From the NCBI GenBank assembly GCA_964489065.1, contig CAZAXH010000008.1, positions 64,130 to 128,129 of the forward strand: a stretch of 64,000 nucleotides of DNA, read 5' to 3'. Numbering within the stretch: the first letter of the stretch is position 1; the number at the start of each line of letters is the position of its first letter. Shown one piece after another: positions 6,366 through 51,935 of the stretch. The notes under the pieces are model-generated. The model was not told the origin of the DNA. It saw nothing but the letters and a program-made list of their open reading frames with translations, and did no database searches. The translations under genes were made by a program, and so were the position numbers. This DNA is from an uncultured Planctomycetales bacterium (GTDB lineage: Bacteria > Omnitrophota > Gorgyraeia > Zapsychrales > JANLHA01).

Positions 6366-7421
6366 ATGATAGAACATTCCAAACCGACATTGGGGCCGCG
6401 CGAGAGACAGGCGCTCCTGAAAACTCTGGCTTCCAATTATATTGCGGAAGGCCAGGAAGTGCATTGCTTTGAAAATGAGGTGGCCGCTTATATCGGTTCC
6501 CCGGGCGCTGTCGCAACGTCCACCGGAACTTTGGGGCTCCATCTCGCACTTCTTTGCCTTGATATGAAGCCAGGGGCCGAGATCATCATCCCAAGCTACA
6601 CTTGCCGCTCTGTTTTAAACGCGGTTTCCTACTGCCGGGCTAAACCGGTGGTATGTGACGTGGAGATAGAAAATTATAATTTGTCTTTTGCGGATGTAAA
6701 AAAAAAAATGACGGCTCGCACGCAAGCGATTATTGTGCCGCATATGTTCGGGTGTCCGGCGCCGATTGACCACTTTAAAACACTGGGGGTTCCTCTTATT
6801 GAAGACTGTGCGCACGCTTTGGGCACCGAATATAAAGGGCGGAAAGCGGGCTGTTGGGGCGATTTGGCCCTGCTTTCTTTTGAAGGTACAAAATATATTG
6901 TAACGGGGGAAGGGGGGATGGTCTTAGCCAACTCTGCCCGCATGCTCAAAAGGCTCCGCAAGTTGAAGGAGGGGGATTCTCCCGATCTTCCTGCGAAATA
7001 CACGTATCGTATGACGGATTTACAGGCCGCCGTGGGACGGGTTCAACTGAGCAGGCTGGAAGATTTTATTAAGAAACGCCGGAGCATCGCCCGGGTTTAT
7101 GATAAAGCCTTCGCATCTGTGACCGAAAGGCATCCGTTGGCGCACATTGACGGCCGCCATATTTACCAGCGTTACATGGTTCAGGTCCGGGGAAACATCC
7201 GTAAACTCATGGAAGATTGCCTTCGCCAGGGGATAAAAGTGAAGCAGCCGGTCAAACCTTATCCTCTGCACCGCTATCTGGGTCTTGCCGGAGGTTTATT
7301 CCCCAACACCGAGCGTATTATGCGTTCGGCGGTCTCTATCCCGATATATCCCTCGTTAACAAAAAAAGAGATTATGCATATAACACAAATACTGCCACCC
7401 TTATTCAAGCGCTATGCCTGA
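6366..7421 (+). CDS. DegT/DnrJ/EryC1/StrS-family PLP-dependent aminotransferase
   Basis: It has the typical N-terminus (KPTLGPRERQALLKTLASNYIAEGQEV..FE), a STGTLGLHLAL segment and the PLP-lysine context SFEGTKYIVTGEGG. Confidence 0.9.
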   Translation: MIEHSKPTLGPRERQALLKTLASNYIAEGQEVHCFENEVAAYIGSPGAVATSTGTLGLHLALLCLDMKPGAEIIIPSYTCRSVLNAVSYCRAKPVVCDVEIENYNLSFADVKKKMTARTQAIIVPHMFGCPAPIDHFKTLGVPLIEDCAHALGTEYKGRKAGCWGDLALLSFEGTKYIVTGEGGMVLANSARMLKRLRKLKEGDSPDLPAKYTYRMTDLQAAVGRVQLSRLEDFIKKRRSIARVYDKAFASVTERHPLAHIDGRHIYQRYMVQVRGNIRKLMEDCLRQGIKVKQPVKPYPLHRYLGLAGGLFPNTERIMRSAVSIPIYPSLTKKEIMHITQILPPLFKRYA

Positions 7422-8406
7422 TACTGAAAAAACAATTATCCCGGTTCCTGATTTGTCCCATGTTGACGCCGGCCCGTTCCCGCCCATGGTGGTTGTCGAA
7501 ATCACGAATGTCTGTAATCTGCAGTGCATCCACTGTCCGTTTTGCTATATATCAAAAGAGCCCGGGTATAAACCGTGCTATATGGCCTGGCCGCTTTATA
7601 AAAAGATCGTGGATGAGGTCGCCGGCCATCCCGGAACCATTTTTCGGCTTTTATGTGACGGAGAGCCCCTCTGCCATCCTCGGTTTATCGATATGGTCCG
7701 CTATGCTAAGACGCGGGGGGTAAGCCCGGTTAATTTTATCACCAACGGGCTTTTAATGGACGGGGCCCGGGCTGCGGCGGTGCTGGAAGCCGGAGTGGAG
7801 GCGGTTGAATTCAGCCTGGATGCGCTTAATAAGAACACATACGAGCGCATCCGGAAAGGTTCGAATTATGAAACGGTCATGCATCATGTCAAAGGCTTTA
7901 TCCGGCTGCGAGACACGTTAAAGGCTCCGACAAAAATTTTTGTCAGCATTATTGACCAGCCTGAAGCCGAAGCCGAGTTGGACGCTTTTGTCGCTTACTG
8001 GACCCCCCGTGTCGACCGGGTTATTACCCGGGCCTACACGTCCATACGGGGCCTTGTTGACCCGGCCAAGATCAAGACCGACCCGCAGATTAAACGCTGG
8101 CCCTGTCCTGACCTTTGGAGGCGTTCGTTTATCAATGTCGACGGTTTTGCCGAATTCTGCGTGGAAGATTGGCACGACCAATCCGTGGTCGGGGATATTA
8201 ACAAAACGACCCTTCAGGCCGTCTGGCAGGGTCCGGATTACGAACGGCTCCGGACCCTGCACAGGCAACGGAGGTTTCAGGAAATTCCTTATTGTGCGGG
8301 CTGTCTGGATTGGCGGGCCCGGGACTGGCATTATGATTATTTTTTGGCTTTGAGAGATACGTTAGGCTCAACGGCAGCCCCAGAGCGGCGGGAGGTGCGG
8401 CCATGA
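7414..8406 (+). CDS. Radical SAM enzyme with an abbreviated SPASM/twitch C-terminal domain
   Basis: The rSAM motif is ITNVCNLQCIHCPF (CxxxCxxC). The C-terminal part has CPDLWRRSFINVDGFAEFC (C-x12-G-x4-C) plus YCAGC. It overlaps both neighbours (7414/7421 and 8403/8406). Confidence 0.85.
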   Translation: MPDTEKTIIPVPDLSHVDAGPFPPMVVVEITNVCNLQCIHCPFCYISKEPGYKPCYMAWPLYKKIVDEVAGHPGTIFRLLCDGEPLCHPRFIDMVRYAKTRGVSPVNFITNGLLMDGARAAAVLEAGVEAVEFSLDALNKNTYERIRKGSNYETVMHHVKGFIRLRDTLKAPTKIFVSIIDQPEAEAELDAFVAYWTPRVDRVITRAYTSIRGLVDPAKIKTDPQIKRWPCPDLWRRSFINVDGFAEFCVEDWHDQSVVGDINKTTLQAVWQGPDYERLRTLHRQRRFQEIPYCAGCLDWRARDWHYDYFLALRDTLGSTAAPERREVRP

Positions 8407-9779
8407 CTTCACGGATTCTCCGAAAAACTCAAAGTGTCTGTCCCCGGTGTCTCGAGACCCTGGACACCTTTATCGTGGAAAAGAACGCAAAAATCGTTAT
8501 GAAAAAAACCTGCCCCCGGCATGGGCTGTTTGAAATCGTATTGTCTTCGACTCCGACTTACTACGCCGAACTCGAGGAGTATTATTTTTCCCTGGCGGAC
8601 ACTCGTTATGAAGTCCCGGAATATGAATTTTGGCCAACCTACCGGTGCAACGCTGACTGCACGATCTGCTGTTTCGGGCGGCAGAATTGGGAGATGGCGG
8701 GGCAGGACGCCTCGACGGGCGAAATTGAAAAACTGGCTAAAAACAGCAAGAAGCGTTTTTTTATTATTTCCGGGGGTGACCCGACCTGCCGGGATGACCT
8801 GGGTGATATTATAAGGACTTTTCGTAAACACGGGAAAGTCGTGACGATCAATACCAACGGCTTAAAATGCGCGGATTTAAACTACCTGAAGAAGTTGAAA
8901 AAGGCGGGCCTGGATCGACTGAATTTGCAATTTGACGGGTTTGACCCCAGATATTATCTGGCTCTGCGGCGTCAGGATTACCTGGACATCAAGCTGAAAG
9001 TTCTTGAAAACCTGCAGACTTTGGGGATTCAGACGACATTCAACGCGACCATCGCCCGGAATCTTAATGAAGGAGCGATCAAGGAATTAATGGATTTCGC
9101 CTCTTCGCACCCTTTTATCAACGGCGTTAATTTCTTTTCCATCTGTTTTCTGGGAGGGGCGAGGGACTGGGAACAAAGTTCATACATCATGCCGGATGAA
9201 ATCATTGACCTGCTCATCAGCCAAATAAGACCCGTTATTTCTAAAAAGAATGTTTTTGTTTTTCAAAAACTTCATCTGGCGGTCAAGTCGTTCCTGGCTC
9301 AGAAATGGTGCTTTTATAATCAGGTCTATCTTTTTGTCCGCAGAAACGGCTCTTTCGAGCCGATTGACCGCTTTCTCAACCTCGCTAAAGCCGAACCTTG
9401 GCTGGACCGTTACAGGGACAACTTCAAGACCAAGCCCTTCTGGGCGCGCGCCTGTCTGGGGATAGCCGTGGGGTGTCTCTTCCTGAAAAAAGAGTCCGTT
9501 ATTATTTTAAAGGAGATCCTTTTGAGGAGCGTGTCCTATTTTCTGAAGACGCGCCATTATCTTCGCGGCAGCCGGTTTTTCTCCGTGAGCTTTTCAACCG
9601 GCTGTGATCCTTATAAATTTGATTTTAACATTGTGAAACATTGCCAGAATGAAATCATCGCGGCCCGGGACCAGGACGGCGTGTTGACTCACTTAGGGAG
9701 CGACGGCCTGTATTGCATGGGGCTGGAGAAACGGTATTTGAGAAATAAACTCCAGAAAGAGGGGATGAGTTCTCGTTGA
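8403..9779 (+). CDS. Radical SAM protein with an N-terminal zinc-ribbon/rubredoxin-like knuckle (subtype A)
   Basis: The N-terminus is SVCPRCL-x19-CPRHG. The rSAM motif is YRCNADCTICCF, followed by SGGDPT. The conserved C-terminal Cys triad is WCFYNQ, CDPYKFD and HCQNEII, and there is a hydrophobic segment FWARACLGIAVGCLFL. Confidence 0.85.
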   Translation: MTSRILRKTQSVCPRCLETLDTFIVEKNAKIVMKKTCPRHGLFEIVLSSTPTYYAELEEYYFSLADTRYEVPEYEFWPTYRCNADCTICCFGRQNWEMAGQDASTGEIEKLAKNSKKRFFIISGGDPTCRDDLGDIIRTFRKHGKVVTINTNGLKCADLNYLKKLKKAGLDRLNLQFDGFDPRYYLALRRQDYLDIKLKVLENLQTLGIQTTFNATIARNLNEGAIKELMDFASSHPFINGVNFFSICFLGGARDWEQSSYIMPDEIIDLLISQIRPVISKKNVFVFQKLHLAVKSFLAQKWCFYNQVYLFVRRNGSFEPIDRFLNLAKAEPWLDRYRDNFKTKPFWARACLGIAVGCLFLKKESVIILKEILLRSVSYFLKTRHYLRGSRFFSVSFSTGCDPYKFDFNIVKHCQNEIIAARDQDGVLTHLGSDGLYCMGLEKRYLRNKLQKEGMSSR

Positions 9780-9780: not shown

Positions 9781-11052
9781 ATGATGAAAGCCTACCCCCG
9801 ACATTCCGTTGACATTACCTGGCGCGATTACAAGCGCATGGTTTCGTTTTTCTTCACATCCCCGGCCCGGAGGAAAGAATTCCTTCCGGAATTCGAACAA
9901 CGCTTTGCGGAATATACCGGCACCCGCTTCGCCCTGTCCGTGCCGTCCGCCCGGGTGGGGCTTTATGCGATCCTGCAGTATTTTAATTTCCCTAAAGGGG
10001 CCGAAGTTATCATCACCCCGTTCACGCACCAGAGTATTTTTACGGTCCTGAAGACGTTCCGGCTTAAGCCGGTTTTCGTCGATATCGATGAAAAGACGCA
10101 CAATATCGACCCGCACCTGGTCAGGAAATCGGTTTCGGAGAAAACCCGTCTGCTGATTTTAACTCATATGTGGGGGCAGCCCTGCGACATGGCCGCGTTC
10201 ACCGCCTTGAAAAAAGAGTACGATCTGAAAATTATTGAAGATTGCGCCATGGCCGCCGGCGCGACTTACCAGGGGCGGAAAGTGGGGAGTTTCGTCGATG
10301 CCAGCATATTCAGCTTCGGGAAAGCTAAGGCCATTTGCGCTTTCGGCGGCGGGATGCTGTGCTGCCATGACGCCTCCATGAAGGATTTTATCTCCGGCCT
10401 GATCCGGGATTTTAAGCCCTCCCGGAGCCTGCCGCTGGCGGTTTCCGTCATTAATTCCGTGATCGCCAATATCCTGACCCGGCCCCGCTTTTTTTTCTTC
10501 TCCCTTTATCCGGTGATGCGGCTTTTCAACCTGCGGGATCCCTACAATCCGGTTGAACATAAAAAAGACTCCGAAGTCATCCTGGAGCAGATGCCGGAAG
10601 AATGGAAAGTCAAAATGTCGCCGTTTCAGGCCGCCCTGGGGCTGGAACAGCTCCGGAGCCTGGACGCCCGTAACCAGGCCCGGGCCCGTAACGCGCAGCT
10701 TTTGAACTTTTTGTTGGAGGGGACGCCGGGGATCAGTGTGCCCCGGCCGCAACCCGGAGGTAATCATATTTATCTTTACTACGCGGTTCATATACAGAAC
10801 GCCGCTTCTCTGGACGCCCTTAGGTTGAGCTTGCTGAAGCGTTCGGTCGACACGCAATTAAATGAGTTGACGACTCCCCGGCAGCTGCGTGTTTTCGGGG
10901 CGGACAGCCGGACGGTCCCTGTTTTTGAAACCATATCCGCGAATATCCTTGTCATCCCCAACGGGATTTATTTAAATGACCGGGATATCCGGCTTGTGGC
11001 GGAGGCGTTAAAACAGAGCCTGAGGTCCCTTCCGGGGAAGGGGGATGCATGA
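9781..11052 (+). CDS. DegT-like PLP aminotransferase-fold protein (long subtype with a hydrophobic insert)
   Basis: It has a DegT-like layout (ALSVPSARVGLYAIL, IEDCAMAAGATYQGRKVG, FSFGKAKAICAFGGG). A hydrophobic insertion (LPLAVSVINSVIANILTRPRFFFFSLYPVMRLF) follows the lysine motif. Confidence 0.75.
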   Translation: MMKAYPRHSVDITWRDYKRMVSFFFTSPARRKEFLPEFEQRFAEYTGTRFALSVPSARVGLYAILQYFNFPKGAEVIITPFTHQSIFTVLKTFRLKPVFVDIDEKTHNIDPHLVRKSVSEKTRLLILTHMWGQPCDMAAFTALKKEYDLKIIEDCAMAAGATYQGRKVGSFVDASIFSFGKAKAICAFGGGMLCCHDASMKDFISGLIRDFKPSRSLPLAVSVINSVIANILTRPRFFFFSLYPVMRLFNLRDPYNPVEHKKDSEVILEQMPEEWKVKMSPFQAALGLEQLRSLDARNQARARNAQLLNFLLEGTPGISVPRPQPGGNHIYLYYAVHIQNAASLDALRLSLLKRSVDTQLNELTTPRQLRVFGADSRTVPVFETISANILVIPNGIYLNDRDIRLVAEALKQSLRSLPGKGDA

Positions 11053-12431
11053 AAACGGCCCGGCCATCCCGCTCGATATTACGGACAACGGAAAGCGTCT
11101 GCCCGAAATGTTCCGCGCCCCTGCCCGCCAGTATTGTCGCGGATGAAAAAGGCGTGTTTATGGAGAAACGCTGCCCGCAGCATGGAGATTTTCGCGTGCG
11201 CCTGTCCGAAACCCCGGCCTTGTACGCCGAACTGGACGGGTTTTACTGTTCCCTGATGGGGCGGGCGCAACCTTGTTTTGATTATGAAATCTGGCCCACC
11301 CTGCGGTGCAATATGAATTGCGCGATATGTTTTTTCGGCTGTCCGCGGGAATCTTCCCGGGTTTTTGAGCCGACGCTCAACGCCATCGAACAGTTCGTCA
11401 GCCGGGACCCGCACCCGTTTTACTGCCTCTCCGGAGCGGAAGCGACTGTCCGGGATGATTTGCCGGATATCATCCGTATTTTAAAAAAGCACCGGAAAGT
11501 CGTGACGTTGAACACTAACGGAATGCGTTTCGAGGATGAATCTTATCTGTTAAAACTGAAGAACGCCGGGCTGGACCGGGTTATTTTGCAATGCGATGGT
11601 TTTGATCCCCGTGTTTCCCTGAAGATGAGGGGAGAGGATGCTGTCCCCCAACGGCAGCGTGTCTTGGCCCTCTTGGAAAAGCATCATATGCCGACCGCGC
11701 TCAGTTCCACGATCGCCCGGGGCCTCAACGAACATACGGTTTCGGAATTGCTGGATTACGCGCTGGCGCATCCTTTCATCAACGGGATCGCGTTTCTGTC
11801 CATCGCCTTTGACGGCGGGGCCCGGAACTGGAGCCAGGAGCGCTACATGATGCCGGATGAAGTGATCGACGTTGTCTGCCGTGTCCCCGGCTATAACGTA
11901 AAAAAAGAAAACGTGCACAGATTTCAAAAGCTGCATTTCGCCGTCAAGGCGTTCTTGAAGCAGCGCGCGTGTTTATATAATCAGCTTTATGTCCTGGTGC
12001 GCCGGCGGGGTTCCTTTGAGCCTATTGACGCTTTCATGAATCTCGCTAAAGCCGAGCCCTGGCTGGACCGTTACCGGCACGCTTACGCGGGGAAGAAACA
12101 CGGCCTGGCCGCTCTTTATCTGGGGCTGGCTTTGCTATGCCTGTGCTGCCATCGCCGGATTTTAGTCCTGTTCCGGGACCTTCTCGGCTCGGGGGTGTCT
12201 TATTTCTTCCGGACGTCACGATATCTAAGAACAGGCCGACTGCTTGCTTTAAGTTTTACGACCAGCTGCGACCCGTATAAGCTCGACAAGACAATCCTCC
12301 AGAATTGTCAGAATGAAATTATGGCCGCGGATCAAACACCGGACTCTTTACGCCCTATCGGAAGGGAAGGCGCCTATTTCGTGAACCTGGAAAAACATTA
12401 CGCTGAATCTCAACCCCGGGGGGAACCATGA
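11049..12431 (+). CDS. Radical SAM protein with an N-terminal zinc-ribbon knuckle (subtype A)
   Basis: It has SVCPKCS-x19-CPQHG, LRCNMNCAICFF, KAEPWLDRYR, CDPYKLD and NCQNEIM, plus the hydrophobic segment LAALYLGLALLCLCC. ATGA overlaps occur at both ends. Confidence 0.85.
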   Translation: MKTARPSRSILRTTESVCPKCSAPLPASIVADEKGVFMEKRCPQHGDFRVRLSETPALYAELDGFYCSLMGRAQPCFDYEIWPTLRCNMNCAICFFGCPRESSRVFEPTLNAIEQFVSRDPHPFYCLSGAEATVRDDLPDIIRILKKHRKVVTLNTNGMRFEDESYLLKLKNAGLDRVILQCDGFDPRVSLKMRGEDAVPQRQRVLALLEKHHMPTALSSTIARGLNEHTVSELLDYALAHPFINGIAFLSIAFDGGARNWSQERYMMPDEVIDVVCRVPGYNVKKENVHRFQKLHFAVKAFLKQRACLYNQLYVLVRRRGSFEPIDAFMNLAKAEPWLDRYRHAYAGKKHGLAALYLGLALLCLCCHRRILVLFRDLLGSGVSYFFRTSRYLRTGRLLALSFTTSCDPYKLDKTILQNCQNEIMAADQTPDSLRPIGREGAYFVNLEKHYAESQPRGEP

Positions 12432-46006: not shown

Positions 46007-47602
46007 ATGAAATTAACCATGCCCATAAAGATTCCCGAACTCCGGTTTCAACTCCAAGACATCAAATATGTCACTGGAGCGGCCGGCTGGGCCATCGGGA
46101 CCTATCTTTTCGGCTCATATCTGCTCAGCCTGCTTTATCATTGCAGCTTTCGAGAGGTCCGCATTTTCAGCCCGGACAACCTTAGTACGGCAGCGGTCCT
46201 CATGAGCTTCCTGATTTTCGGGGCCGGATTTATAATGACCTTCTTTATCCCGGGGTGGATTCTGTGCCTGCATTTCCGGCGCTTGCAAAATGATCTTCCG
46301 GGATTCCTGACAGCCGCATTTTTTTCCAGTATCGGAATTTGTATCCTGGGGAGCTCAATTTATAAAATCATGGGGGGGAGGATTTTGTGCAGGAATAATT
46401 TTCTGGGTATTATCATTTTGTTGATAATATTAGAACTCATCTCGCTATTATGGAAAAGACACCGCCGTCAAGAACAATGTCCCCCAAGAGATATTATGTT
46501 TTCACTGCCATCTCTTATGCCATATTGTGTTTTGATTCTTCTAGCCATTTTGTTCCTCCTGACTTCAGGCCGGGACCTTATTAACGGGGCTCCTGTGGCT
46601 TATCAATACGACCCCCAAACGGTTCTGGCCATTCCCCTGGGAGAGCAGTCGGATTCTCTTGAAGCTTTCGGCCTGGCGCACAGCCTCCGGACCCATCTTT
46701 TGCCGTACTGGGACCTGGAATACGCTGATAAATTCGGCTATGTTTTTACAGATACCCCGCTGTATCCTTATGTGGCTCTGTTTGCTATTTTACTTTTCGG
46801 GGAAAGCTTCGCGGCCGTATCTCTGTTGTCTGTCAGTTTTATTATTATGATATTCAGCTCTGTGCTGGCCCGGGGGTATCCGCTGCGCTCCCAGATACGC
46901 TTTGTAACCTGCGCCGGGCTCATGCTCGCCTATCTTTTTTTTCTTCTCAAAGAACCGGCTGTTTTTGTTTACATGGAACATTTTTTCCTCCTGCAGATTA
47001 TTCTGGTTTATATCTTCCTCCTTAAAAAAGACAAGGTTGTTTTTTGGCTGTTGGCCATCAGCGCGACCCTGACGAAATTTTATGGAATTTTTTTTATTCT
47101 TCTGGGGATCGGCGCTTTATTCCTGTTTTTTAAAAAAAGACAAAGGGAAGCCCGGGGCCTGCTGGCTGGATATGGACTGATCGTTGCCAGTGTGTTGGTC
47201 GGCATTCTGTTCATGGGTGTTATAACCGGGAATACCGGCACGTATATAAAATGCCTGTTCATCGAGCATCTTAACCGTCTGGATTATTTTTCCTTACTCC
47301 CCAGGATATACCCTCAGGACGTCGTGTATCGCCCGACGCCGGATTTTAACCAAAGCACCCGGTTTCTCACCTGGACGTTATTGGCGACCGCGTTCACGTT
47401 CCCGGCTTTATTTGTTTTTGGAGACGACCGGGAAGAACGGTTTTACTCGTTGATCGGTCTGATTTATTTCACCCTTGTTTTTGTCAGCACCTACAGCTTG
47501 CCCCGGTATGTGCTTCCGCTCATCCCGTTTGCGGCCATGGTCGTGAGCAGCCAGGGGGAAAGATATCTGGCCCGGAGGATAAAAAGGGAGACTTATTCAT
47601 GA
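46007..47602 (+). CDS. Polytopic integral membrane protein of unknown function (possible GT-C-like)
   Basis: It is 531 aa with at least 10 predicted hydrophobic helices. I recognise no soluble-domain motif. It is translationally coupled to the downstream rSAM gene (ATGA at 47599/47602). Confidence 0.5.
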   Translation: MKLTMPIKIPELRFQLQDIKYVTGAAGWAIGTYLFGSYLLSLLYHCSFREVRIFSPDNLSTAAVLMSFLIFGAGFIMTFFIPGWILCLHFRRLQNDLPGFLTAAFFSSIGICILGSSIYKIMGGRILCRNNFLGIIILLIILELISLLWKRHRRQEQCPPRDIMFSLPSLMPYCVLILLAILFLLTSGRDLINGAPVAYQYDPQTVLAIPLGEQSDSLEAFGLAHSLRTHLLPYWDLEYADKFGYVFTDTPLYPYVALFAILLFGESFAAVSLLSVSFIIMIFSSVLARGYPLRSQIRFVTCAGLMLAYLFFLLKEPAVFVYMEHFFLLQIILVYIFLLKKDKVVFWLLAISATLTKFYGIFFILLGIGALFLFFKKRQREARGLLAGYGLIVASVLVGILFMGVITGNTGTYIKCLFIEHLNRLDYFSLLPRIYPQDVVYRPTPDFNQSTRFLTWTLLATAFTFPALFVFGDDREERFYSLIGLIYFTLVFVSTYSLPRYVLPLIPFAAMVVSSQGERYLARRIKRETYS

Positions 47603-49071
47603 CCCCCTGTCATAATATTTTGTTAGTGCGGGTTGGGTATGCAGAGAGGAAAAAAATCGACCATCCTCTGCATCACCCGCCGCCTTTGGCCCTGAAATAC
47701 ACCCAGGCCCTGCTGGAACAAGACAGACGTTTCAAGACCCGGATTCTGGATGGCCTGATTGAGCCTATGCCGGATCAAGTGGTCGTGGCTATGATCGGGC
47801 AATGGCCGGCACACACGCTGTGCGTTGAAATCGCCTCACCGTCCAGTGAAAAGGGGCTGGCGCTATGCAAAAGCGTCCGGGAAAAGTATCCCGCCCTTTT
47901 CATTGTCGCCGTCGGCTCTGACGTCAGCGAGCGTCATCTGTTTTATGCAAACACAAACGGCCTTTTCGATGTGATCCTGAGGGGGGAGTTTGAACTGGAA
48001 TTCAGCCGCTTGATGGCCCGTGTTCAGGACAAGGGGAAAGCCGACGTTATTCAGGCGTATGGAAGCTCCGCTTTAGATCAGGAGGTGTGCCTGGTGCCCG
48101 ACCCAGGCGCCCTGCCTATCCTGGATTGGACCAGGCGTGATCTCAAGAAATATCCTTACCGCTACCCTTTGCGGCTTCCTAAAAAAATACGGCCGGGTTA
48201 TATCGCCAGTTCGCGAGGATGCCGACATGGCTGTTCCTTTTGCTCGCCGTCTGTCAGGAAAAGTTACGGGAAGAAACTCCGGCTGCGGCCGGCCAGCCAC
48301 ATCCTTCAGGAAATTGAAAGCCTGCAAAGGTTAGGGGTCAATATCATTGCATTTGAAGATGACGATTTTACGGGAGACCCCGAACACGTGCGCTCGCTCT
48401 GCGCTGAAATACGGCGCAAAAAATTAAACATCCACTGGACCTGTCACGCCCGGATTGACGAGGTGACCCCTGAATTGTTGCGCGATATGAAACAGGCCGG
48501 ATGCGTTCTCATACTATTCGGCGTTGAATCCGGTTCCGCGAAAATTATCCGTTTGCTGCACAAAAGTTCCCGGGAGCGTGACTGGAACTCCCTGGCCAGG
48601 GAAACCTTCCGGCAGGCGAGGGCCATTGGCATCGCGACCTGCGCTTTGTTTATGGTGGGGAACCCGAAGGAAACCCGGGCGGATGTGGACGAGAGCATCA
48701 AACTTGCTTTTGAATTACAGCCGGATTTTATCAAAGTACATAACTTCACCCTTTATCCCGGGTCGCAGGATTACAAACGCTATGGCGCAACTCCTGACCT
48801 GTCTGCCGCGCCGCACCATTACCTTCGGCCCATTGTGAATGTAAGCCGGTTAACAGACCAGGAATTAAAAATCCTTCAGAAGGAATTTTACAGGAACTTT
48901 TTTTTCAGGCCAGGGTACCTCTGGCCTCATATTAAGAATTATTCTCTTTTTTATCTGTTCAACTGGACTTGGAGTTTCAGGATGATCGGTGAGCTCCTTT
49001 GTTTTTTGCTCTCCCGGGAACAGCAGGGGGCAGCCGGCGCTCCGTCAACAACACCCAGCTTGTTAAAATAA
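47599..49071 (+). CDS. B12-binding (class B) radical SAM enzyme, second subfamily
   Basis: It has HHPPPLALKYTQALLE, SRGCRHGCSFC, FGVESGS and VGNPKETRAD. It is the closest paralog of 42134..43612. Confidence 0.88.
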   Translation: MTPCHNILLVRVGYAERKKIDHPLHHPPPLALKYTQALLEQDRRFKTRILDGLIEPMPDQVVVAMIGQWPAHTLCVEIASPSSEKGLALCKSVREKYPALFIVAVGSDVSERHLFYANTNGLFDVILRGEFELEFSRLMARVQDKGKADVIQAYGSSALDQEVCLVPDPGALPILDWTRRDLKKYPYRYPLRLPKKIRPGYIASSRGCRHGCSFCSPSVRKSYGKKLRLRPASHILQEIESLQRLGVNIIAFEDDDFTGDPEHVRSLCAEIRRKKLNIHWTCHARIDEVTPELLRDMKQAGCVLILFGVESGSAKIIRLLHKSSRERDWNSLARETFRQARAIGIATCALFMVGNPKETRADVDESIKLAFELQPDFIKVHNFTLYPGSQDYKRYGATPDLSAAPHHYLRPIVNVSRLTDQELKILQKEFYRNFFFRPGYLWPHIKNYSLFYLFNWTWSFRMIGELLCFLLSREQQGAAGAPSTTPSLLK

Positions 49072-49081
49072 GGATTTGAAT

Positions 49082-50962
49082 ATGCCGCCTTTTTATGGAA
49101 CCATTTCCTGGGATAAGCCGCTCACGTCAGACATCAGGCATCGCCTGAAGGCGCTCGCGCCGCACGTTCAAAATAATTCCCGGAAGGGGGCTGATGAAAA
49201 CCAGCATGTCCTGCTTGCTTCTCAAGCCCCTCACGGGGAGAGGGGGAATTACTGCGAAATTCCGGGGTGTTGTGTGCTATTTAACGGCATCCTTTATAAC
49301 GCGCAGGAACTGCTGCCGCTTTTACCGGAACACGACCGGGCTTGCGCCCAGAGATGCCAGGCCCGTTTAGTCGCCTCGCTTTTTCAAAAATTCCATCATG
49401 CCTGTTTCACCCGGTTTAATGGGGATTTTTCCCTCGCCCTTCATGACGTTTCCCAGCGAACATTTTATTTGCTCAACGGGAAACTCCAGCCCAGGAAAAT
49501 ATATTATGCCTGGCAACAGGGATATTTGTTCTTTGCCGAAAACATGGAAACCATCGTAAAGATGTCCGGCTCACTTCCGCCGTTTAACAGCCGGTTCTTG
49601 CCGAAATATTTTGCCTACGGCTTTGTCCCCAGCCCCCACACCTTGCTGGAAGGGATCCATCGCCTGCCTTCCGGGAAATTCCTGCAATTCAAACCAACCA
49701 ACCTGGCTTTAGAGACTTATTGGGACATCCAATTCAGCGAGGAGAAGATGGAGGCGGCCCCAACAGGGAAGACCAGTTATAGCCAAGAAGCCTTCCGTGT
49801 ACTGTGTGAAAGCACGCAACGACGTTTCAATGCCGGCGCCCGGATTGGCTTATTTTTAAGCGGCGGGCTTGATTCCGGTTCTTTGGCAGCCGTGCTAAAG
49901 CATATCAGCCCACAGACCCCTCTGCAGACCTTTACCGCCGTATTCAACGAACAATCCTTCAATGAAGCCTCCCGCGCCCGGACTGTCGCGTCTTTTTTTC
50001 AAACGCAGCACCATGAAATTTTGTTCACCCAGGAGAAGGCCCTGACGTTTGTGACGAACTGGATAGAACGGCTGGATGATCCGTTCTCGGATGATGACGT
50101 TATTTGCGGAGGCATCCTTTCCCCCGTGGCCGAAAAATCCGCGGAGGATATCTTTCTGGGGGACGGTCCGGACGAACTGTTCATGGGCTACCCGTCCTTC
50201 CTGGCTCATCGTATCACGGAGATCTACGAACGCGTCCCGGCCTTGGTCAGGAAATATTTTGAACGGGCCGTCAGAGTCCTGCCGGTGTCCTATCGATACT
50301 GCGCCTTTGACGCGCGGTTCAGCCAGTTTTTAAGCGGTGTCGGCTATCCTCCCGCTCTCCGTGACGCGGCCTGGTGGGGCCCGTTTCCCCCGGCTTCTCA
50401 AAAGCCGTTATACCTGGATGCGGGGTTCTCTTTGGACGCCACGGATGTTTTTCAAGACGTCTTGACCGCACAGGACCGGGCTCGGGCCCAAACATTTGTG
50501 AATCAGGTTTTAACGGCTTATATTAAAATTTTAAGTGAACGCTGGCTCATGAAACTCAACGCCGTAAGCCTTGACACGCCCCTGCGGTTTAAAATGCCGT
50601 ACCTGGACGACGACTTTATGGCCTTTGTCAACAGGATCCCCTGGCAATACAAATTAAAGCCGAAATACATTTTAAGACAAGCAATAAGCCCTTATCTTCC
50701 TCAACGTATCGTCCAGGGGACCAAACGGCCGTTCTTTGTCCCCCTGGCACTCTGGATTAAAAATGGTTTTAAAGGACTGATCAGCGGCATTTTAACCCCG
50801 GAGAACCTTCAGCAGACAGGGTTGAATCATCCTACGGTTTTAAAGATGTGTGACGAACATTTTTCCGGGCACAGGAACTACGCCAGGCAAATATGGAATA
50901 TATTTATATTGACCGCCTGGCACCGGAGGATCCGAAGGATAGGGCAGGGCTTAAATCTTTAG
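49082..50962 (+). CDS. Asparagine synthetase B-like ATP-dependent amidoligase lacking the N-terminal Cys nucleophile
   Basis: It has the PP-loop LFLSGGLDSGSLAAV. The N-terminus reads MPPFYGTISW instead of MCG(I/V). The ATG at 49082 follows TAAGGA with a 7-nt spacer; the track TTG start at 49076 is less likely. Confidence 0.8.
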   Translation: MPPFYGTISWDKPLTSDIRHRLKALAPHVQNNSRKGADENQHVLLASQAPHGERGNYCEIPGCCVLFNGILYNAQELLPLLPEHDRACAQRCQARLVASLFQKFHHACFTRFNGDFSLALHDVSQRTFYLLNGKLQPRKIYYAWQQGYLFFAENMETIVKMSGSLPPFNSRFLPKYFAYGFVPSPHTLLEGIHRLPSGKFLQFKPTNLALETYWDIQFSEEKMEAAPTGKTSYSQEAFRVLCESTQRRFNAGARIGLFLSGGLDSGSLAAVLKHISPQTPLQTFTAVFNEQSFNEASRARTVASFFQTQHHEILFTQEKALTFVTNWIERLDDPFSDDDVICGGILSPVAEKSAEDIFLGDGPDELFMGYPSFLAHRITEIYERVPALVRKYFERAVRVLPVSYRYCAFDARFSQFLSGVGYPPALRDAAWWGPFPPASQKPLYLDAGFSLDATDVFQDVLTAQDRARAQTFVNQVLTAYIKILSERWLMKLNAVSLDTPLRFKMPYLDDDFMAFVNRIPWQYKLKPKYILRQAISPYLPQRIVQGTKRPFFVPLALWIKNGFKGLISGILTPENLQQTGLNHPTVLKMCDEHFSGHRNYARQIWNIFILTAWHRRIRRIGQGLNL

Positions 50963-51804
50963 TCGTATTGATAAATAATCTGCATTAAATCATACAAATT
51001 AAGCGCGATGCCTTTCTGATACCACGAGTCGGGGATATGTAATGCACTTCCTTTGGCCACAAAATCAATAAAATACTGGCCAATATAACCGATAGACCTA
51101 AAACGCGTGAAATGTGCGAAGCCCAGTTCCTTTAATCCATGCTCCCCCGCAACCTTCCTGAGCGTGCCGCGGGAAAAAAATGAAAAATGATATTTGTTAA
51201 TGTAATGCCAATTTCCCCCGCACAGACGCGCGAAGAAACTGTCCGCATTAGGCGTGCAGACATAGACCACAGCCCCTCGATCCAGCACCAAGCCGAGATC
51301 GTGGAAGAAAATCCGGGGGGCCCTGACATGTTCCAGCACGTCCGAAATAATGACCGCGTCATATCTGGCCTGCGGAGCGGAAGCCCCGGGCAACCCTTTA
51401 ATGTCTGTTAAGAAGAAAAATGGCTCCCGGGAAAGATACCGGTTATATAAAGCCGCGGAAGGTTCAATCCCGTAAGCGTCAACCGAGTTCCGGCGAAGAT
51501 AGCGCACGAGTTTCCCCGTGCCCGTGCCGATATCCAAGACGCGCAATCCCTTTAAAGGTTTAAACCGTTCGATCCATGCCAGCATCCTTGCGAAATTCAC
51601 TGCGTCTTCAGGGGAATCTTCTAAATAATGGATATACGCAGGCTCATATTCTTCCAGGGTATTATGATCCAGATTAGGGTTCTGCGTCTGCCCGGAAAAC
51701 AGGAAACCGCACGACAGACAGCGGAAATAGGGGACGGCATTTTTCTTAAAAACTTCTTTTATATGTTCTGTGGAGCATAAGGGACATTGGCTTATCATAT
51801 CCAT
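50959..51804 (-). CDS. Class I SAM methyltransferase with an N-terminal zinc ribbon
   Basis: It has CPLCS-x17-CLSCGF followed by VLDIGTGTGKLVRYL and DAVIISDVLEHV. The preferred start is MDMISQ (ATG at 51804); the track TTG start at 51837 is possible. It overlaps the convergent AsnB-like stop by 4 nt. Confidence 0.8.
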   Translation of the reverse strand: MDMISQCPLCSTEHIKEVFKKNAVPYFRCLSCGFLFSGQTQNPNLDHNTLEEYEPAYIHYLEDSPEDAVNFARMLAWIERFKPLKGLRVLDIGTGTGKLVRYLRRNSVDAYGIEPSAALYNRYLSREPFFFLTDIKGLPGASAPQARYDAVIISDVLEHVRAPRIFFHDLGLVLDRGAVVYVCTPNADSFFARLCGGNWHYINKYHFSFFSRGTLRKVAGEHGLKELGFAHFTRFRSIGYIGQYFIDFVAKGSALHIPDSWYQKGIALNLYDLMQIIYQYD

Positions 51805-51935
51805 CCGCCTCTCGAGAATAATGGTCTTGCGTATCAAGTATACTATACAATAATTAAGTTTAAATGAAAGGAGAATAATCCTTATCTCCTTTTTCAGAAA
51901 CCGGCAAGAAATTCAAGGAATCAAAGTCATAAACC

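What the first reader, a model, noticed from the sequence alone, without database searches (positions are those of the whole stretch)
6366..51837. A cluster of about 45 kb with 18 radical-SAM genes and no convincing precursor-peptide, PKS/NRPS or sugar-nucleotide genes
Between two AT-rich boundaries I count 19 CxxxCxxC radical-SAM domains in 18 ORFs: 11 class-B/B12-type, 5 zinc-ribbon-capped, 2 SPASM/twitch and 1 MiaB-like. Together they make up roughly 60% of the DNA. Most genes run in one direction, and many are linked by ATGA start/stop overlaps, so they are very likely co-translated. The non-rSAM genes are 3 DegT aminotransferases, 1 SAM methyltransferase, an AsnB-like amidoligase, a PaaK/CapK-like ligase, a GT2, a flippase-like protein, 2-3 GT-C membrane transferases and WbqC. 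I find no convincing precursor peptide (one weak 33-aa sORF at 6268 is reported separately). I also find no leader peptidase, carrier protein, ketosynthase, NDP-sugar dehydratase/epimerase or nucleotidyltransferase. I know of no characterised pathway with this composition. The simplest reading is a multi-step radical C-H functionalisation line acting on a pre-existing membrane lipid or lipid-linked glycan.
Basis: partly seen in the sequence, partly recalled or inferred. Interest (0 to 1): 0.92.

Follow-up and report, generated by a model that had tools for sequence, protein, structure and literature searches.

The report
Radical-SAM-rich envelope glycan cluster of Omnitrophota
This 45-kb stretch is a real, tightly packed gene cluster with 18 radical-SAM enzymes, conserved gene-for-gene in the uncultured bacterial phylum Omnitrophota; it most likely decorates a membrane-anchored sugar of the cell envelope by chemistry nobody has yet described.

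Summary
There are 19 CxxxCxxC/PF04055 domains in 18 ORFs, which make up 59% of 45.5 kb. Ten gene junctions are ATGA overlaps. No carrier protein, PKS/NRPS, NDP-sugar gene or conserved small ORF is present.

New findings:
- The contig is a chromosomal Omnitrophota (PVC) fragment, and the cluster is collinear in other Omnitrophota genomes. Each paralogue has its own orthologue (55-82% identity, against 34-49% between paralogues).
- The segment g1-g26 (6366-43612) is a conserved core. The segment g27-g32 is replaced in a ~90%-identical relative.
- None of the 18 radical-SAM proteins reaches the curated cut-off of any NCBIfam family.
- The zinc-ribbon enzymes are a Tes/GDGT-MAS-like subfamily that lacks the N-domain cluster of Tes.
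- The SPASM enzyme g2 travels with a DegT aminotransferase in 61 of 80 genome loci from at least ten phyla, and less often with a GT2 (26) or WbqC (17). In three loci outside Omnitrophota whose genes I annotated, it sits among ordinary polysaccharide genes.
- WbqC is predicted to fold like BshC and class-I aminoacyl-tRNA synthetases, which are ATP-dependent ligases.

Best reading (~50%): an Arn/Gtr-type lipid-linked sugar pathway (GT2, flippase-like protein, GT-C enzymes) into which Omnitrophota inserted a large radical-SAM tailoring line. Remodelling of membrane-lipid tails is the main rival. The product is unknown, and I found no paper describing the cluster.

The parts
6025..6365 (.). AT-rich upstream intergenic region; probable promoter region of the first operon
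   Evidence: GC is 0.28 here against 0.50 in the cluster. The small ORFs here (33 aa at 6268, + strand; 55 aa at 6102-6269, - strand) are not conserved beyond a 94%-identical relative.
6366..7421 (+). g1: DegT-family PLP aminotransferase, overlapping g2 by 8 nt
   Evidence: PF01041 scores 270 bits. The best NCBIfam hits, PseC/LegC/ArnB, are below cut-off. Orthologues are 63-65% identical in L005 and L006. A DegT homologue lies in 61 of 80 loci that carry a g2 relative.
7414..8406 (+). g2: radical SAM with a SPASM/twitch-type C-terminal cluster domain; marker of the ancestral sugar module
8403..9779 (+). g3: zinc-ribbon (rubredoxin-like) radical SAM, Tes/GDGT-MAS-like
   Evidence: PF23545 and PF04055. 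The best PDB match is 7TOL, E 3e-39. NCBIfam Tes scores 144 bits against a cut-off of 450.
9781..11052 (+). g4: second DegT aminotransferase, lying between two zinc-ribbon radical-SAM genes
   Evidence: PF01041 scores 223 bits. Orthologues are 62-68% identical.
11049..12431 (+). g5: zinc-ribbon radical SAM; lineage-specific extra copy, closest to g3
   Evidence: PF23545 and PF04055. It is 46% identical to g3. It is absent from L005 and L006 and present in L010 and L011.
12428..15184 (+). g6: fusion of two zinc-ribbon radical-SAM units
   Evidence: Two PF23545 and two PF04055 domains. The C-terminal unit groups with the single-domain orthologues in L005 and L006.
15144..16751 (+). g7: B12-binding radical SAM, family A (likely start 15189)
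   Evidence: PF02310 and PF04055. It is 82% identical to its L005 orthologue and 41-49% to its paralogues.
16762..18114 (+). g8: methylthiotransferase-like radical SAM without a TRAM domain (likely start 16804)
   Evidence: UPF0004 and PF04055. The MiaB/RimO subfamily model scores 212 bits against a cut-off of 251. Cys 14/50/82 and 204/208/211 are present, with no TRAM domain.
18111..19625 (+). g9: B12-binding radical SAM, family A
   Evidence: Orthologues are 68-73% identical.
19622..21136 (+). g10: B12-binding radical SAM, family A
   Evidence: Orthologues are 67-80% identical. The best PDB matches are AprD4, CysS and TokK.
21115..22653 (+). g11: B12-binding radical SAM, family A (likely start 21133)
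   Evidence: Orthologues are 51-61% identical in L090 and L091.
22637..23980 (+). g12: zinc-ribbon radical SAM
   Evidence: An exhaustive phmmer search finds 316 representative proteins at E<=1e-30. Orthologues are 55-68% identical.
23990..25540 (+). g13: B12-binding radical SAM, family A; no orthologue in L090 or L091
   Evidence: It is present in the ~90%-identical relative L172.
25537..27012 (+). g14: B12-binding radical SAM, family A
   Evidence: Orthologues are 59-73% identical.
27030..28640 (+). g15: B12-binding radical SAM, family A; no orthologue in L090 or L091
28609..30291 (+). g16: membrane protein (about 5 TM segments) with a beta-propeller-like C-terminal half; function unassigned (likely start about 28681)
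   Evidence: No Pfam family passes. There are weak Lactonase/YncE propeller hits. Orthologues are 35-45% identical in L090 and L091.
30194..31366 (+). g17: flippase-like polytopic membrane protein (likely start 30305)
   Evidence: PF03706 LPG_synthase_TM scores 78 bits. About 9 TM segments.
31303..32076 (+). g18: small GT2 glycosyltransferase of the polyprenyl-phosphate-sugar synthase type (likely start 31360)
   Evidence: PF00535 scores 82 bits. The best NCBIfam hits are ArnC (63 bits) and PpgS (47 bits), far below cut-off. It is 45-48% identical to the GT2 of the small clusters L002 and L009.
32078..32773 (+). g19: WbqC-family protein, predicted ATP-dependent ligase fold
32915..34765 (+). 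g20: YfhO-like polytopic membrane protein, probable GT-C transferase
   Evidence: YfhO C-terminal region scores 32.7 bits against a cut-off of 28.5. The L090 orthologue carries PF09586. It is 23% identical to the 611-aa protein of L002.
34766..36262 (-). g21: PaaK/CapK-type adenylate-forming ligase
   Evidence: NCBIfam DVU_1553-family ligase scores 127 bits (cut-off 300) and PaaK 122 bits. Orthologues carry PF27533 CapK_C.
36259..37674 (-). g22: radical SAM, distant member of the B12 group, ATGA-coupled to g21
   Evidence: PF04055 scores 36 bits. It is 24-30% identical to family A. Orthologues are 54-57% identical.
37979..39181 (+). g23: HEAT-repeat protein with an N-terminal hydrophobic segment; role unknown
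   Evidence: HEAT_2 scores 135 bits. It is conserved in L090 (49%) and L092 (90%).
39370..40875 (+). g24: B12-binding radical SAM, family C, HpnJ-like; the most conserved enzyme of the cluster
   Evidence: PF02310 and PF04055. HpnJ scores 160 bits against a cut-off of 578. Eighty metagenome loci are 55-97% identical. It is fused to a GT2 in L009.
40739..42124 (+). g25: third DegT aminotransferase (likely start 40880)
   Evidence: PF01041 scores 249 bits. The start is inferred from the relative's gene call and an ATG at 40880.
42134..43612 (+). g26: radical SAM, family C (BchE/HpnJ-like); last gene of the conserved core
   Evidence: BchE scores 134 bits against a cut-off of 481. It is 89% identical in L092, after which synteny ends.
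43609..44613 (+). g27: small radical SAM with a Cys-rich C-terminus (twitch/SPASM-like); first gene of the variable tail
   Evidence: PF04055 and Fer4_12. The best PDB matches are SkfB and BlsE. Only 35-41% identical homologues occur elsewhere.
44621..45982 (+). g28: GT-C glycosyltransferase of the PMT_2/ArnT type
   Evidence: PF13231 scores 88 bits. About 10 TM segments. No homologue in any fetched locus.
46007..47602 (+). g29: polytopic membrane protein (about 11 TM segments), family unassigned
   Evidence: No Pfam, NCBIfam or PDB match. No homologue in the fetched loci.
47599..49071 (+). g30: radical SAM, family C
   Evidence: PF04055 scores 78 bits. HpnJ scores 132 bits. It is 36% identical to g26.
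49076..50962 (+). g31: AsnB-type glutamine amidotransferase/amidoligase
   Evidence: PF00733 scores 193 bits, with a GATase domain. The XrtA-system amidotransferase model scores 237 bits against a cut-off of 817.
50959..51837 (-). g32: class-I SAM methyltransferase, convergent with g31
   Evidence: Methyltransf_23 scores 86 bits.
52085..53716 (+). ABC-2 type transporter (ATPase and permease) just outside the reported end; possibly linked to the cluster
   Evidence: PF00005 and PF01061. A 43%-identical ATPase flanks the cluster in L006 and L017, and 31-36% identical ones lie in the glycan loci L075 and L052. The link is not established.

Best explanation
This is a chromosomal, operon-like pathway of Omnitrophota that builds a heavily tailored sugar, or sugar-amino-acid conjugate, on a membrane lipid carrier and then attaches it to the cell envelope. 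All steps below are inferred unless marked otherwise.

1. The small GT2 (g18, ArnC/PpgS/DPM1-like) loads a common sugar onto a polyprenyl phosphate, or another membrane lipid, at the cytoplasmic face.
2. The SPASM/twitch radical-SAM enzyme g2 oxidises a sugar hydroxyl to a ketone. The translationally coupled DegT g1 then transaminates it. This is the BtrN/BtrS logic, and it would explain why no NDP-sugar dehydratase is needed.
3. WbqC (g19), predicted to have a BshC/MshC-like class-I-synthetase fold, ligates a carboxylate or amino acid to the new amine using ATP.
4. Two further DegT enzymes (g4, g25), each placed between radical-SAM genes, repeat the oxidise-and-aminate step at other positions.
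5. Omnitrophota added a radical tailoring line to this widespread module:
   - seven old B12-type paralogues, plus g22, g24, g26 and g30, for methylation, ring contraction or other C-C chemistry at unactivated carbons;
   - five Tes-like zinc-ribbon domains with a C-terminal auxiliary cluster, for radical C-C coupling;
   - one TRAM-less methylthiotransferase-like enzyme.
6. The CapK/PaaK-type ligase, the AsnB-type amidoligase and the methyltransferase finish the group.
7. The flippase-like g17 moves the lipid-linked product across the membrane. The GT-C enzymes (g20, g28, perhaps g29) transfer it to an unknown acceptor such as LPS, another glycan or a surface protein.

What is shown rather than inferred: the gene content, conservation across genomes, orthology of each paralogue, family relationships and predicted folds. 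The substrate, the order of steps and the chemistry are all inferred.
For: **Gene content.** A GT2, a flippase-like protein and GT-C proteins lie in one co-directional block with three DegT genes and WbqC.

**Wide association of the g2 module.**
- A genome-wide scan with a g2 alignment found 229 relatives.
- Among the best 80 loci, 61 hold a DegT homologue, 26 a g18-like GT2 and 17 a WbqC.
- In the three non-Omnitrophota loci I annotated, g2 sits in ordinary polysaccharide loci: UDP-GlcNAc 2-epimerase, SDR epimerases/dehydratases, GT1/GT4, GDP-mannose dehydratase and UDP-glucose dehydrogenase.

**Minimal related clusters.**
- L002 and L009 keep a GT2 and large membrane proteins next to SPASM, zinc-ribbon and B12 radical-SAM genes.
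- L009 also holds a PMT_2 and WbqC.
- In L009 a g24-type B12 radical-SAM enzyme is fused to a GT2 in one 753-aa protein.

**Fold and family hints.**
- g24, g26 and g30 are nearest to HpnJ, which rearranges a lipid-linked glucosamine (role of HpnJ from PMC13459092).
- The zinc-ribbon enzymes carry a conserved hydrophobic segment, at about residues 350-370 in g3/g5/g6, that fits membrane association.

**Each paralogue is kept.** Orthologues are 55-82% identical between genomes, while paralogues are 34-49% identical to each other. This implies distinct, non-redundant steps.

**Variable tail.** The tail is replaced in a ~90%-identical relative by another set drawn from the same enzyme families, as happens in surface-glycan loci.
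Against: - No product, intermediate or acceptor is known.
- The GT2 match to polyprenyl-phosphate transferases is weak (63 bits against a cut-off of 529).
- The only characterised relative of the zinc-ribbon enzymes, Tes, acts on lipid tails, not sugars.
- The WbqC ligase role rests on fold alone.
- The cluster holds no source of the sugar donor, no Wzx/Wzy and no O-antigen ligase.
- Roughly 16 radical steps on one sugar-sized substrate is hard to picture. This hints at a larger or repeating substrate.
Confidence: 0.5

Rival explanations
1. Membrane-lipid remodelling. The Tes-like enzymes couple or cyclise hydrocarbon tails, and the B12 enzymes methylate or ring-close them, as GrsA/B, Gmm and HpnP/R do. 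The result would be branched, cyclised or membrane-spanning lipids. The GT2, DegT and WbqC genes would only build an amino-sugar head group.
For: - The zinc-ribbon enzymes match GDGT-MAS (7TOL) at E 3e-39. They share its 3Cys+His rubredoxin-like site, its radical-SAM cluster and three conserved C-terminal Cys.
- The best NCBIfam hits of the B12 paralogues are the lipid enzymes HpnJ and rSAM_ladder_B12.
- Hydrophobic segments occur in several of the enzymes.
- Most characterised radical-SAM lipid enzymes belong to these classes (PMC13459092).
Against: - All those hits are far below the curated cut-offs: 100-180 bits against 360-578.
- The N-domain [4Fe-4S] motif of Tes is absent.
- No lipid-synthesis gene is in the cluster: no fatty-acid, isoprenoid, ether-bond or plasmalogen gene.
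- The conserved partners are glycan genes. The g24-GT2 fusion links a radical-SAM enzyme to a sugar transfer step.
Confidence: 0.22
2. A diffusible small molecule. The cluster would make an aminocyclitol-, aminoglycoside- or nucleoside-like natural product with many C-methylations, which the neighbouring ABC or RND transporters would export.
For: - DegT combined with a twitch-type radical-SAM enzyme recalls BtrS/BtrN.
- B12 radical-SAM enzymes methylate aminoglycosides, and AprD4 is the best PDB hit of g10.
- ABC-2 and AcrB/OEP genes lie directly downstream.
Against: - No cyclitol synthase, NDP-sugar synthesis gene or resistance gene is present.
- Several polytopic membrane proteins, a flippase-like protein and at least two GT-C-type transferases point to membrane-linked intermediates and an extracytoplasmic transfer step.
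- The cluster is a conserved, collinear chromosomal trait across deep Omnitrophota lineages, unlike typical accessory natural-product clusters.
Confidence: 0.1
3. Post-translational modification of a peptide or protein. This could be a RiPP, or glycosylation plus radical modification of a surface protein such as the giant proteins of Omnitrophota.
For: - B12 radical-SAM, SPASM and AsnB-like enzymes all occur in RiPP pathways. ApyD and RiPP C-methyltransferase models are among the weak hits.
- PMT_2 enzymes glycosylate proteins.
- Omnitrophota encode very long surface proteins (bioRxiv 10.64898/2026.06.07.730766).
Against: - No small ORF in or next to the cluster is conserved beyond ~90%-identical relatives.
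- No peptidase, RRE/PqqD-like or leader-processing domain was found by Pfam.
- The flanks differ between genomes.
Confidence: 0.08
4. Merely co-located housekeeping radical-SAM genes (cofactor or tRNA modification), or an assembly artefact.
For: g8 resembles MiaB/RimO. g2, g3 and g27 give weak MoaA, NirJ and PqqE hits.
Against: - None of the 18 reaches an NCBIfam cut-off.
- g8 lacks a TRAM domain. L005 and L006 carry a separate UPF0004 radical-SAM gene upstream of the cluster.
- The same gene order recurs in independent assemblies, including a 3.36-Mb chromosome.
Confidence: 0.02

Closest known systems
Three-component lipid-linked glycosylation systems: ArnB/ArnC/ArnEF/ArnT (L-Ara4N on lipid A), mycobacterial PpgS/Rv3779, GtrABC, CsbB/YfhO
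   Same: A DegT aminotransferase, a small GT2 of the polyprenyl-phosphate-sugar synthase type, a membrane translocator and GT-C transferases (PMT_2/ArnT-like and YfhO-like) lie in one block. What these known systems do is from my own knowledge.
   Different: - No ArnA-type dehydrogenase/decarboxylase, formyltransferase or deformylase is present.
- The translocator is an LPG_synthase_TM protein, not ArnE/F or GtrA.
- Eighteen radical-SAM genes are inserted, which none of the known systems has.
- Matches to ArnC and PpgS are far below cut-off.
Tes / GDGT-MAS, the archaeal tetraether lipid synthase (PDB 7TOL)
   Same: N-terminal rubredoxin-like 3Cys+His site, radical-SAM core and conserved C-terminal Cys consistent with an auxiliary cluster. 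E is 3e-39 (features of Tes from PMC13459092).
   Different: - The CxxxCxxC motif of the N-domain [4Fe-4S] cluster is absent.
- Scores of 144-153 bits per single-domain protein against a cut-off of 450.
- Bacterial, with four ORFs (five domains) in one cluster.
- Embedded among glycan genes, with no archaeal-lipid context.
Radical-SAM enzymes acting on lipid-linked sugars: hopanoid HpnI/HpnK/HpnJ and archaeal calditol synthase Cds
   Same: A glycosyltransferase puts a sugar on a lipid and a radical-SAM enzyme then rearranges that sugar. HpnJ is the best NCBIfam hit for g24 and g30, and second to BchE for g26 (117-160 bits). A g24-type enzyme is fused to a GT2 in L009 (PMC13459092).
   Different: Below the HpnJ cut-off of 578 bits. 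There are no hopanoid genes (shc, hpnH, hpnG). Far more radical-SAM steps are present.
Aminoglycoside tailoring enzymes BtrN/BtrS, GenK, AprD4, DesII, BlsE
   Different: No 2-deoxy-scyllo-inosose synthase and no NDP-sugar genes. Membrane-linked logic. A conserved chromosomal trait rather than an antibiotic cluster.
BshC and MshC, the cysteine:glucosaminyl ligases of bacillithiol and mycothiol synthesis
   Different: WbqC is only 231 aa, a catalytic core, and shares about 12% identity. No activity has been shown, and I found no paper characterising it.
Radical-SAM-rich clusters next to NifHDK paralogues in groundwater Elusimicrobia (bioRxiv 10.1101/765248)
   Same: Up to 13 radical-SAM genes, several B12-type, lie in one neighbourhood in a sister PVC phylum.
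   Different: Those clusters centre on nitrogenase-like proteins and are proposed to make a tetrapyrrole-type cofactor. The window has no Nif-like gene.

Membership tests
Radical SAM superfamily | CxxxCxxC cluster motif within a PF04055 domain | tested here: met
   19 motifs in 18 ORFs. PF04055 scores above its gathering cut-off in all 18.
Class B (cobalamin-binding) radical SAM | N-terminal B12-binding domain (PF02310) ahead of the radical-SAM core | tested here: met
   Met for g7, g9, g10, g11, g13, g14, g15 and g24, at 57-74 bits against a cut-off of 32. Pfam does not detect it in g22, g26 or g30; these are related only by BLAST and by HpnJ/BchE alignments, so they remain inconclusive.
Class B (cobalamin-binding) radical SAM | Actual cobalamin binding and methyl transfer | not testable with these tools
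   AprD4, the best PDB hit of g10, has the fold but does not use cobalamin for methylation. Activity cannot be read from sequence.
Tes / GDGT-MAS tetraether synthase | Rubredoxin-like N-terminal metal site with 3 Cys + 1 His | tested here: met
   C13, C16, C37 and H40 are invariant in 11 family members. PF23545 hits appear.
Tes / GDGT-MAS tetraether synthase | N-terminal-domain [4Fe-4S] cluster between the ribbon and the radical-SAM motif | tested here: not met
   7TOL has CPYDCGLC ahead of its radical-SAM motif (alignment). No invariant Cys lies between C37 and the radical-SAM motif C82 in the 11-member alignment.
Tes / GDGT-MAS tetraether synthase | C-terminal auxiliary [4Fe-4S] cluster (3 Cys + Met) | tested here: inconclusive
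   C303 and C401 are invariant; C414 and M263 are nearly invariant. C303 aligns with a Cys of 7TOL. I could not verify the ligand assignment.
Tes / GDGT-MAS tetraether synthase | Score above the curated NCBIfam cut-off (NF045702, 450 bits) | tested here: not met
   143-153 bits for the single-domain proteins, and 266 bits for the two-domain g6.
MiaB/RimO/MtaB methylthiotransferases | UPF0004 domain with three Cys, a radical-SAM core and a C-terminal TRAM domain | tested here: not met
   g8 has UPF0004 with Cys 14/50/82 and the radical-SAM motif, but no TRAM domain. It scores 212 bits against the subfamily cut-off of 251.
SPASM/twitch radical SAM | C-terminal Cys-rich auxiliary-cluster domain (PF13186) | tested here: met
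   g2 scores 42.6 bits on PF13186 against a cut-off of 21.5. Only four C-terminal Cys are invariant (C231, C249, C294, C297), so one auxiliary cluster (twitch-like) is more likely than two.
RiPP biosynthetic cluster | Conserved precursor-peptide gene next to the modifying enzymes, with leader recognition or a protease | tested here: not met
   18 intergenic small ORFs were listed. By tblastn, none is conserved in loci below about 90% identity. No peptidase or RRE domain was found.
Arn/Gtr-type three-component lipid-linked glycosylation | GT2 that makes a polyprenyl-phosphate sugar | tested here: inconclusive
   g18 has PF00535. Its best NCBIfam hits are ArnC (63 bits, cut-off 529) and PpgS (47 bits, cut-off 370). 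The lipid acceptor cannot be tested here.
Arn/Gtr-type three-component lipid-linked glycosylation | GT-C transferase acting outside the cytoplasm | tested here: met
   g28 scores 88 bits on PMT_2 against a cut-off of 26. g20 scores 32.7 bits on YfhO against 28.5, and its orthologue carries PF09586.
PKS / NRPS / fatty-acid-type assembly line | Carrier protein, ketosynthase, condensation or adenylation-thiolation modules | tested here: not met
   None was found by Pfam in the 32 ORFs. The only adenylate-forming enzyme is the stand-alone PaaK/CapK-like g21.

The most novel reading that the evidence does not exclude
Omnitrophota share a phylum-specific envelope component made by an unprecedented radical assembly line. 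In it, a lipid-anchored amino-sugar (or sugar-amino-acid) unit is methylated, cross-linked, ring-contracted and thiomethylated at a dozen or more unactivated carbons. This would include the first non-archaeal, non-lipid-tail function for Tes-type C-C coupling enzymes and the first assigned function for WbqC. The product would be a new class of glycoconjugate and a chemical marker for this uncultured phylum.
Probability: 0.35. Interest if true: 0.92.

Novelty: new variant of a known kind. Interest (0 to 1): 0.78.

Why it matters
- **Phylum biology.** Omnitrophota are widespread, ultra-small and almost entirely uncultured bacteria whose cell-surface chemistry is unknown. A gene-for-gene conserved cluster spending about 40 kb on up to 18 radical-SAM enzymes implies an important and chemically extreme envelope component.
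- **Enzymology.** It offers about a dozen uncharacterised B12-dependent and Tes-like enzymes, each with a presumably distinct regiospecificity, all acting on one substrate family.
- **Wider glycobiology.** The analysis exposes a smaller set of genes that travel together in many phyla: a SPASM radical-SAM enzyme with DegT, and often a GT2 and WbqC. This suggests an anaerobic route to N-acylated amino sugars that needs no NDP-sugar dehydratase.
- **Biomarkers.** If instead the lipid reading is right, it would bear on the unknown bacterial sources of methylated and cyclised tetraether lipids used as palaeoclimate proxies.

Tried and rejected
- **Known radical-SAM families.** I scanned all 18 against NCBIfam. 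Every best hit is far below its cut-off, so they are not misplaced cofactor or tRNA genes.
- **RiPP logic.** I listed every intergenic small ORF and searched 170 related loci by tblastn. Only near-identical relatives match, so I rejected it.
- **Riboswitches and tRNAs.** An Rfam gathering scan and ARAGORN found nothing. There is no cobalamin or SAM riboswitch and no tRNA island boundary.
- **Promoters and terminators.** The scan of 34-40 kb gave no more sites than shuffled sequence and was uninformative.
- **g6 homologue search.** The word-indexed search returned only 2 hits. An exhaustive search with g12 was needed.
- **g16 and g29.** No Pfam, NCBIfam or PDB sequence match even at E<=1.
- **WbqC.** Sequence search against the PDB found nothing. 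Only the fold comparison was informative.
- **Domain fusions of distant zinc-ribbon relatives.** Partners were hemerythrin and a P-type ATPase, which says nothing about this cluster.
- **Literature.** Searches on Omnitrophota plus radical SAM, WbqC, TrsS, and Tes in bacteria found no description of this cluster. The Elusimicrobia Nif-paralogue clusters are a different system.
- **Organism of the small cluster L002.** It could not be identified.

Full report
**1. The observation**

I took the 32 long ORFs between 6366 and 51837.
- They hold 19 CxxxCxxC motifs in 18 ORFs, and the 918-aa ORF 12428-15184 carries two. Pfam places a Radical_SAM domain in all 18.
- Eight ORFs also have a B12-binding domain: g7, g9, g10, g11, g13, g14, g15 and g24. 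Three more (g22, g26, g30) are BLAST relatives of that group and have the cluster motif at the same position.
- Four ORFs hold five Zn_ribbon_HMPTM + radical-SAM units (g3, g5, g6 twice, g12).
- g2 has a SPASM domain, g27 a Cys-rich tail, and g8 a UPF0004 (MiaB-type) N-domain.
- Radical-SAM ORFs make up 26,901 of 45,472 bases, or 59%.
- Twenty-four of 32 junctions overlap or lie within 10 nt, and ten are ATGA overlaps.
- The upstream boundary has GC 0.28, against 0.50 inside the cluster.
- No carrier protein, PKS/NRPS domain, NDP-sugar enzyme or peptidase is present.

**2. Where it comes from**

- The window is part of a 68.9-kb contig assembled from run SRR15237810.
- Named homologues of the SPASM enzyme g2 are nearly all labelled Candidatus Omnitrophota or PVC group.
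- The flanks are ordinary chromosomal genes: an ATP synthase operon, a penicillin-binding protein, and RND and ABC transporters.
- There is no tRNA and no Rfam element.

**3. It is conserved, not a one-off**

- The same order, DegT-SPASM-ZnR-DegT-ZnR-B12-MiaB-like-B12-B12-B12, occurs on a 3.36-Mb Omnitrophota chromosome (OY759724.1) and in Omnitrophica WOR_2 genomes.
- The middle part, B12...ZnR-B12-membrane protein-flippase-like-GT2-WbqC-YfhO-(ligase, rSAM on the other strand)-HEAT-B12-DegT-rSAM, is collinear in OY759724.1. In WOR_2 it is partly rearranged.
- Each paralogue has its own orthologue at 55-82% identity in the first part of the cluster, while paralogues within the window share only 34-49%. 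The duplications are therefore old, and each copy has been kept, which argues for distinct steps.
- Copy number varies. g5, the N-terminal unit of g6, g13 and g15 are missing from the more distant genomes. They are present in close relatives.
- The window, with 18 radical-SAM ORFs, has the largest array I saw.

**4. Core and variable tail**

- A ~90%-identical relative (L092/L172, activated sludge) is collinear from g12 to g26. It then continues with different genes of the same kinds: a B12-like radical-SAM enzyme, a flippase-like protein, a g27-like radical-SAM enzyme and a DegT.
- g28 and g29 have no homologue in any of the 170 loci fetched. g27 and g30-g32 have only distant ones.
- So 6366-43612 is the conserved core and 43609-51837 is a strain-variable tail.
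- Upstream, a 94%-identical relative lacks window 2864-6024.

**5. What the radical-SAM enzymes are**

- None reaches the curated cut-off of any NCBIfam family. The refutation test 'they classify into known cofactor or tRNA families' therefore fails.
- The zinc-ribbon enzymes are closest to the tetraether synthase GDGT-MAS/Tes (7TOL, E 3e-39) and to the uncharacterised TrsS family.
- An alignment of 11 members shows an invariant CxxC...CxxH site, the radical-SAM motif, and three conserved C-terminal Cys. These fit the rubredoxin-like site and the C-terminal auxiliary cluster described for Tes (PMC13459092).
- The motif of the N-domain cluster of Tes is absent. They are a Tes-like subfamily, not Tes.
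- An exhaustive search finds 316 representative proteins at E<=1e-30.
- The B12 paralogues hit HpnJ, the 'ladderane-type' lipid B12 family, BchE and several methyltransferases equally weakly. g24, g26 and g30 are nearest to HpnJ or BchE.
- g8 has the three N-terminal Cys of methylthiotransferases but no TRAM domain. Related genomes carry a separate UPF0004 radical-SAM gene upstream of the cluster.

**6. The clue from distribution**

- A scan of one genome per GTDB species with a g2 alignment found 229 relatives. I compared the best 80 loci with the window proteins by tblastn.
- Arrays of zinc-ribbon and B12 enzymes occur in 14 loci. All have g2 identity of at least 45%, and all are labelled Omnitrophota, PVC, Planctomycetia/Planctomycetales or unclassified.
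- In the other 66 loci g2 is 32-58% identical. These come from Nitrospirota, Myxococcota, Desulfobacterota, Ignavibacteria, Planctomycetota, Gemmatimonadota, Pseudomonadota and others. There g2 lies with a DegT in 47 loci, a g18-like GT2 in 20 and a WbqC in 16.
- Pfam annotation of three such loci shows ordinary polysaccharide genes:
  - UDP-GlcNAc 2-epimerase, three SDR epimerases/dehydratases, DegT, a FemAB-like protein, a hexapeptide acyltransferase and a GT1 in Melioribacter;
  - GT2, GT4, GDP-mannose dehydratase, two DegT, WbqC, DUF2079 and B12 radical-SAM enzymes in a Pseudomonadota MAG;
  - UDP-glucose dehydrogenase, GT10 and an epimerase in L008.
- The g2/DegT pair, often with GT2 and WbqC, is therefore a widespread sugar-tailoring set, and the Omnitrophota cluster is an expansion built around it.
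- Two small related clusters keep a GT2 and large membrane proteins next to SPASM, zinc-ribbon and B12 genes: L002, of unknown organism, and L009 from a PVC bacterium. L009 also has WbqC and a PMT_2.
- In L009 a g24-type enzyme is fused to a GT2, and in L002 a B12 enzyme is fused to a zinc-ribbon enzyme. These fusions tie the radical steps to each other and to the sugar-transfer step.

**7. Folds**

- WbqC has no characterised function and no PDB sequence match.
- BshC and MshC ligate cysteine to a glucosamine amine. WbqC is therefore plausibly an ATP-dependent ligase that acylates the amine made by DegT. This is a fold-based inference.
- The g2 model (pLDDT 90.5) matches SuiB, BlsE, BtrN, ChlB, DesII and anSME about equally. 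That is compatible with a BtrN-like alcohol oxidation but does not show it.

**8. Mechanism proposed**

A GT2 loads a sugar on a lipid carrier. Then g2 and g1 convert a hydroxyl to an amine, WbqC N-acylates it, and two further DegT enzymes between radical-SAM genes repeat the amination elsewhere. The B12, Tes-like and MiaB-like enzymes carry out methylation, C-C coupling or ring chemistry, and methylthiolation at unactivated carbons. The ligase, amidoligase and methyltransferase finish the group. The flippase-like protein translocates it, and the GT-C enzymes transfer it to an envelope acceptor. An ABC-2 transporter next to the cluster here and in WOR_2 genomes may belong to the system. Only gene content, conservation and family or fold relationships are shown; all chemistry is inferred. 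I give this reading about 0.5.

**9. Rivals**

- Lipid-tail remodelling with a sugar head group: 0.22. It is supported by the Tes and lipid-enzyme similarities, and weakened by the lack of any lipid-synthesis gene and by the glycan partners.
- A secreted aminoglycoside-like metabolite: 0.10.
- Peptide or protein modification: 0.08.
- Coincidental housekeeping genes: 0.02.

**10. Novelty**

I found no paper that describes this cluster. The enzyme families and the three-component glycosylation frame are known. The combination and scale are not: five Tes-like domains, eleven B12-type enzymes and a methylthiotransferase-like enzyme in a conserved glycan-type operon. I file it as a new variant of a known kind. 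There is a real chance (about 0.35) that the product defines a new class of glycoconjugate.

Noticed in passing
window 32078-32773 (g19): WbqC (PF08889) has no characterised function that I could find. Here it is predicted with high confidence to adopt a BshC / class-I aminoacyl-tRNA-synthetase catalytic fold, which suggests an ATP-dependent amide ligase acting on amino sugars.
   Followed up: partly
window 2864-6024: Four genes sit between the 556-aa ORF at 1173-2843 and the cluster: an Mrp/NUBPL-type Fe-S ATPase, an ARMT1-like phosphatase, a truncated AAA/ABC-like ATPase and a 281-aa unknown on the minus strand. They are absent at this position in the 94%-identical relative L011, so this is an insertion or deletion difference. 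An Fe-S delivery ATPase beside 18 Fe-S enzymes may or may not be a coincidence.
   Followed up: partly
L092 (after about 14 kb) versus window 43609-51837: A ~90%-identical relative replaces g27-g32 with a different set drawn from the same enzyme families (B12-like radical SAM, flippase-like, small radical SAM, DegT). This resembles serotype-style variation of a surface-glycan locus.
   Followed up: partly
L093-L171 (metagenome loci): The g24-type B12 radical-SAM enzyme is unusually conserved: 55-75% identity in about 80 metagenome contigs. In many of the longer contigs it lies near a g22-like radical-SAM gene, and less often near g27-like and flippase-like genes, outside the full cluster. It may belong to a smaller, more widespread unit.
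   Followed up: no
L009 19999-20936 and onward (GCA_024231215.1, PVC group bacterium); L002 10001-12853: Two natural fusions occur: B12 radical SAM + GT2 (753 aa), and B12 radical SAM + zinc-ribbon radical SAM (950 aa, P0001).
   Followed up: partly
P0136, P0143, P0188, P0199 (hits of the exhaustive search with g12): More distant zinc-ribbon radical-SAM relatives carry N-terminal hemerythrin domains. One is also fused to a P-type ATPase. This is a different and also undescribed architecture.
   Followed up: no
L005 4737-6038 and L006 3223-4521: In other Omnitrophota the cluster is preceded by a tRNA-dihydrouridine synthase gene and a second UPF0004 radical-SAM gene (28-29% identical to g8), possibly the housekeeping methylthiotransferase. 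The window has a different upstream flank.
   Followed up: no
window 52085-53716; L006 1-1247; L075 709-1476: An ABC-2 type transporter (Wzm/Wzt- or TagGH-like class) lies beside the cluster or beside g2-containing glycan loci in several genomes.
   Followed up: partly
The 55-aa ORF is only 81% identical in a relative whose neighbouring proteins are 91-97% identical, and neither ORF is found in more distant loci. Both are probably non-coding.
   Followed up: yes
L008 16639-20975: Next to a g2-type gene in a 2.37-Mb genome lies an AHH-nuclease toxin gene followed by a row of 184-aa ORFs, some of them Imm11-like. This is a polymorphic-toxin locus unrelated to the finding.
   Followed up: no
window 3-944 and 61231-63471: The window starts with an AdoMet-decarboxylase-like fragment and a class-I methyltransferase. 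It ends with the start of an F-type ATP synthase operon (a, b and delta subunits).
   Followed up: no
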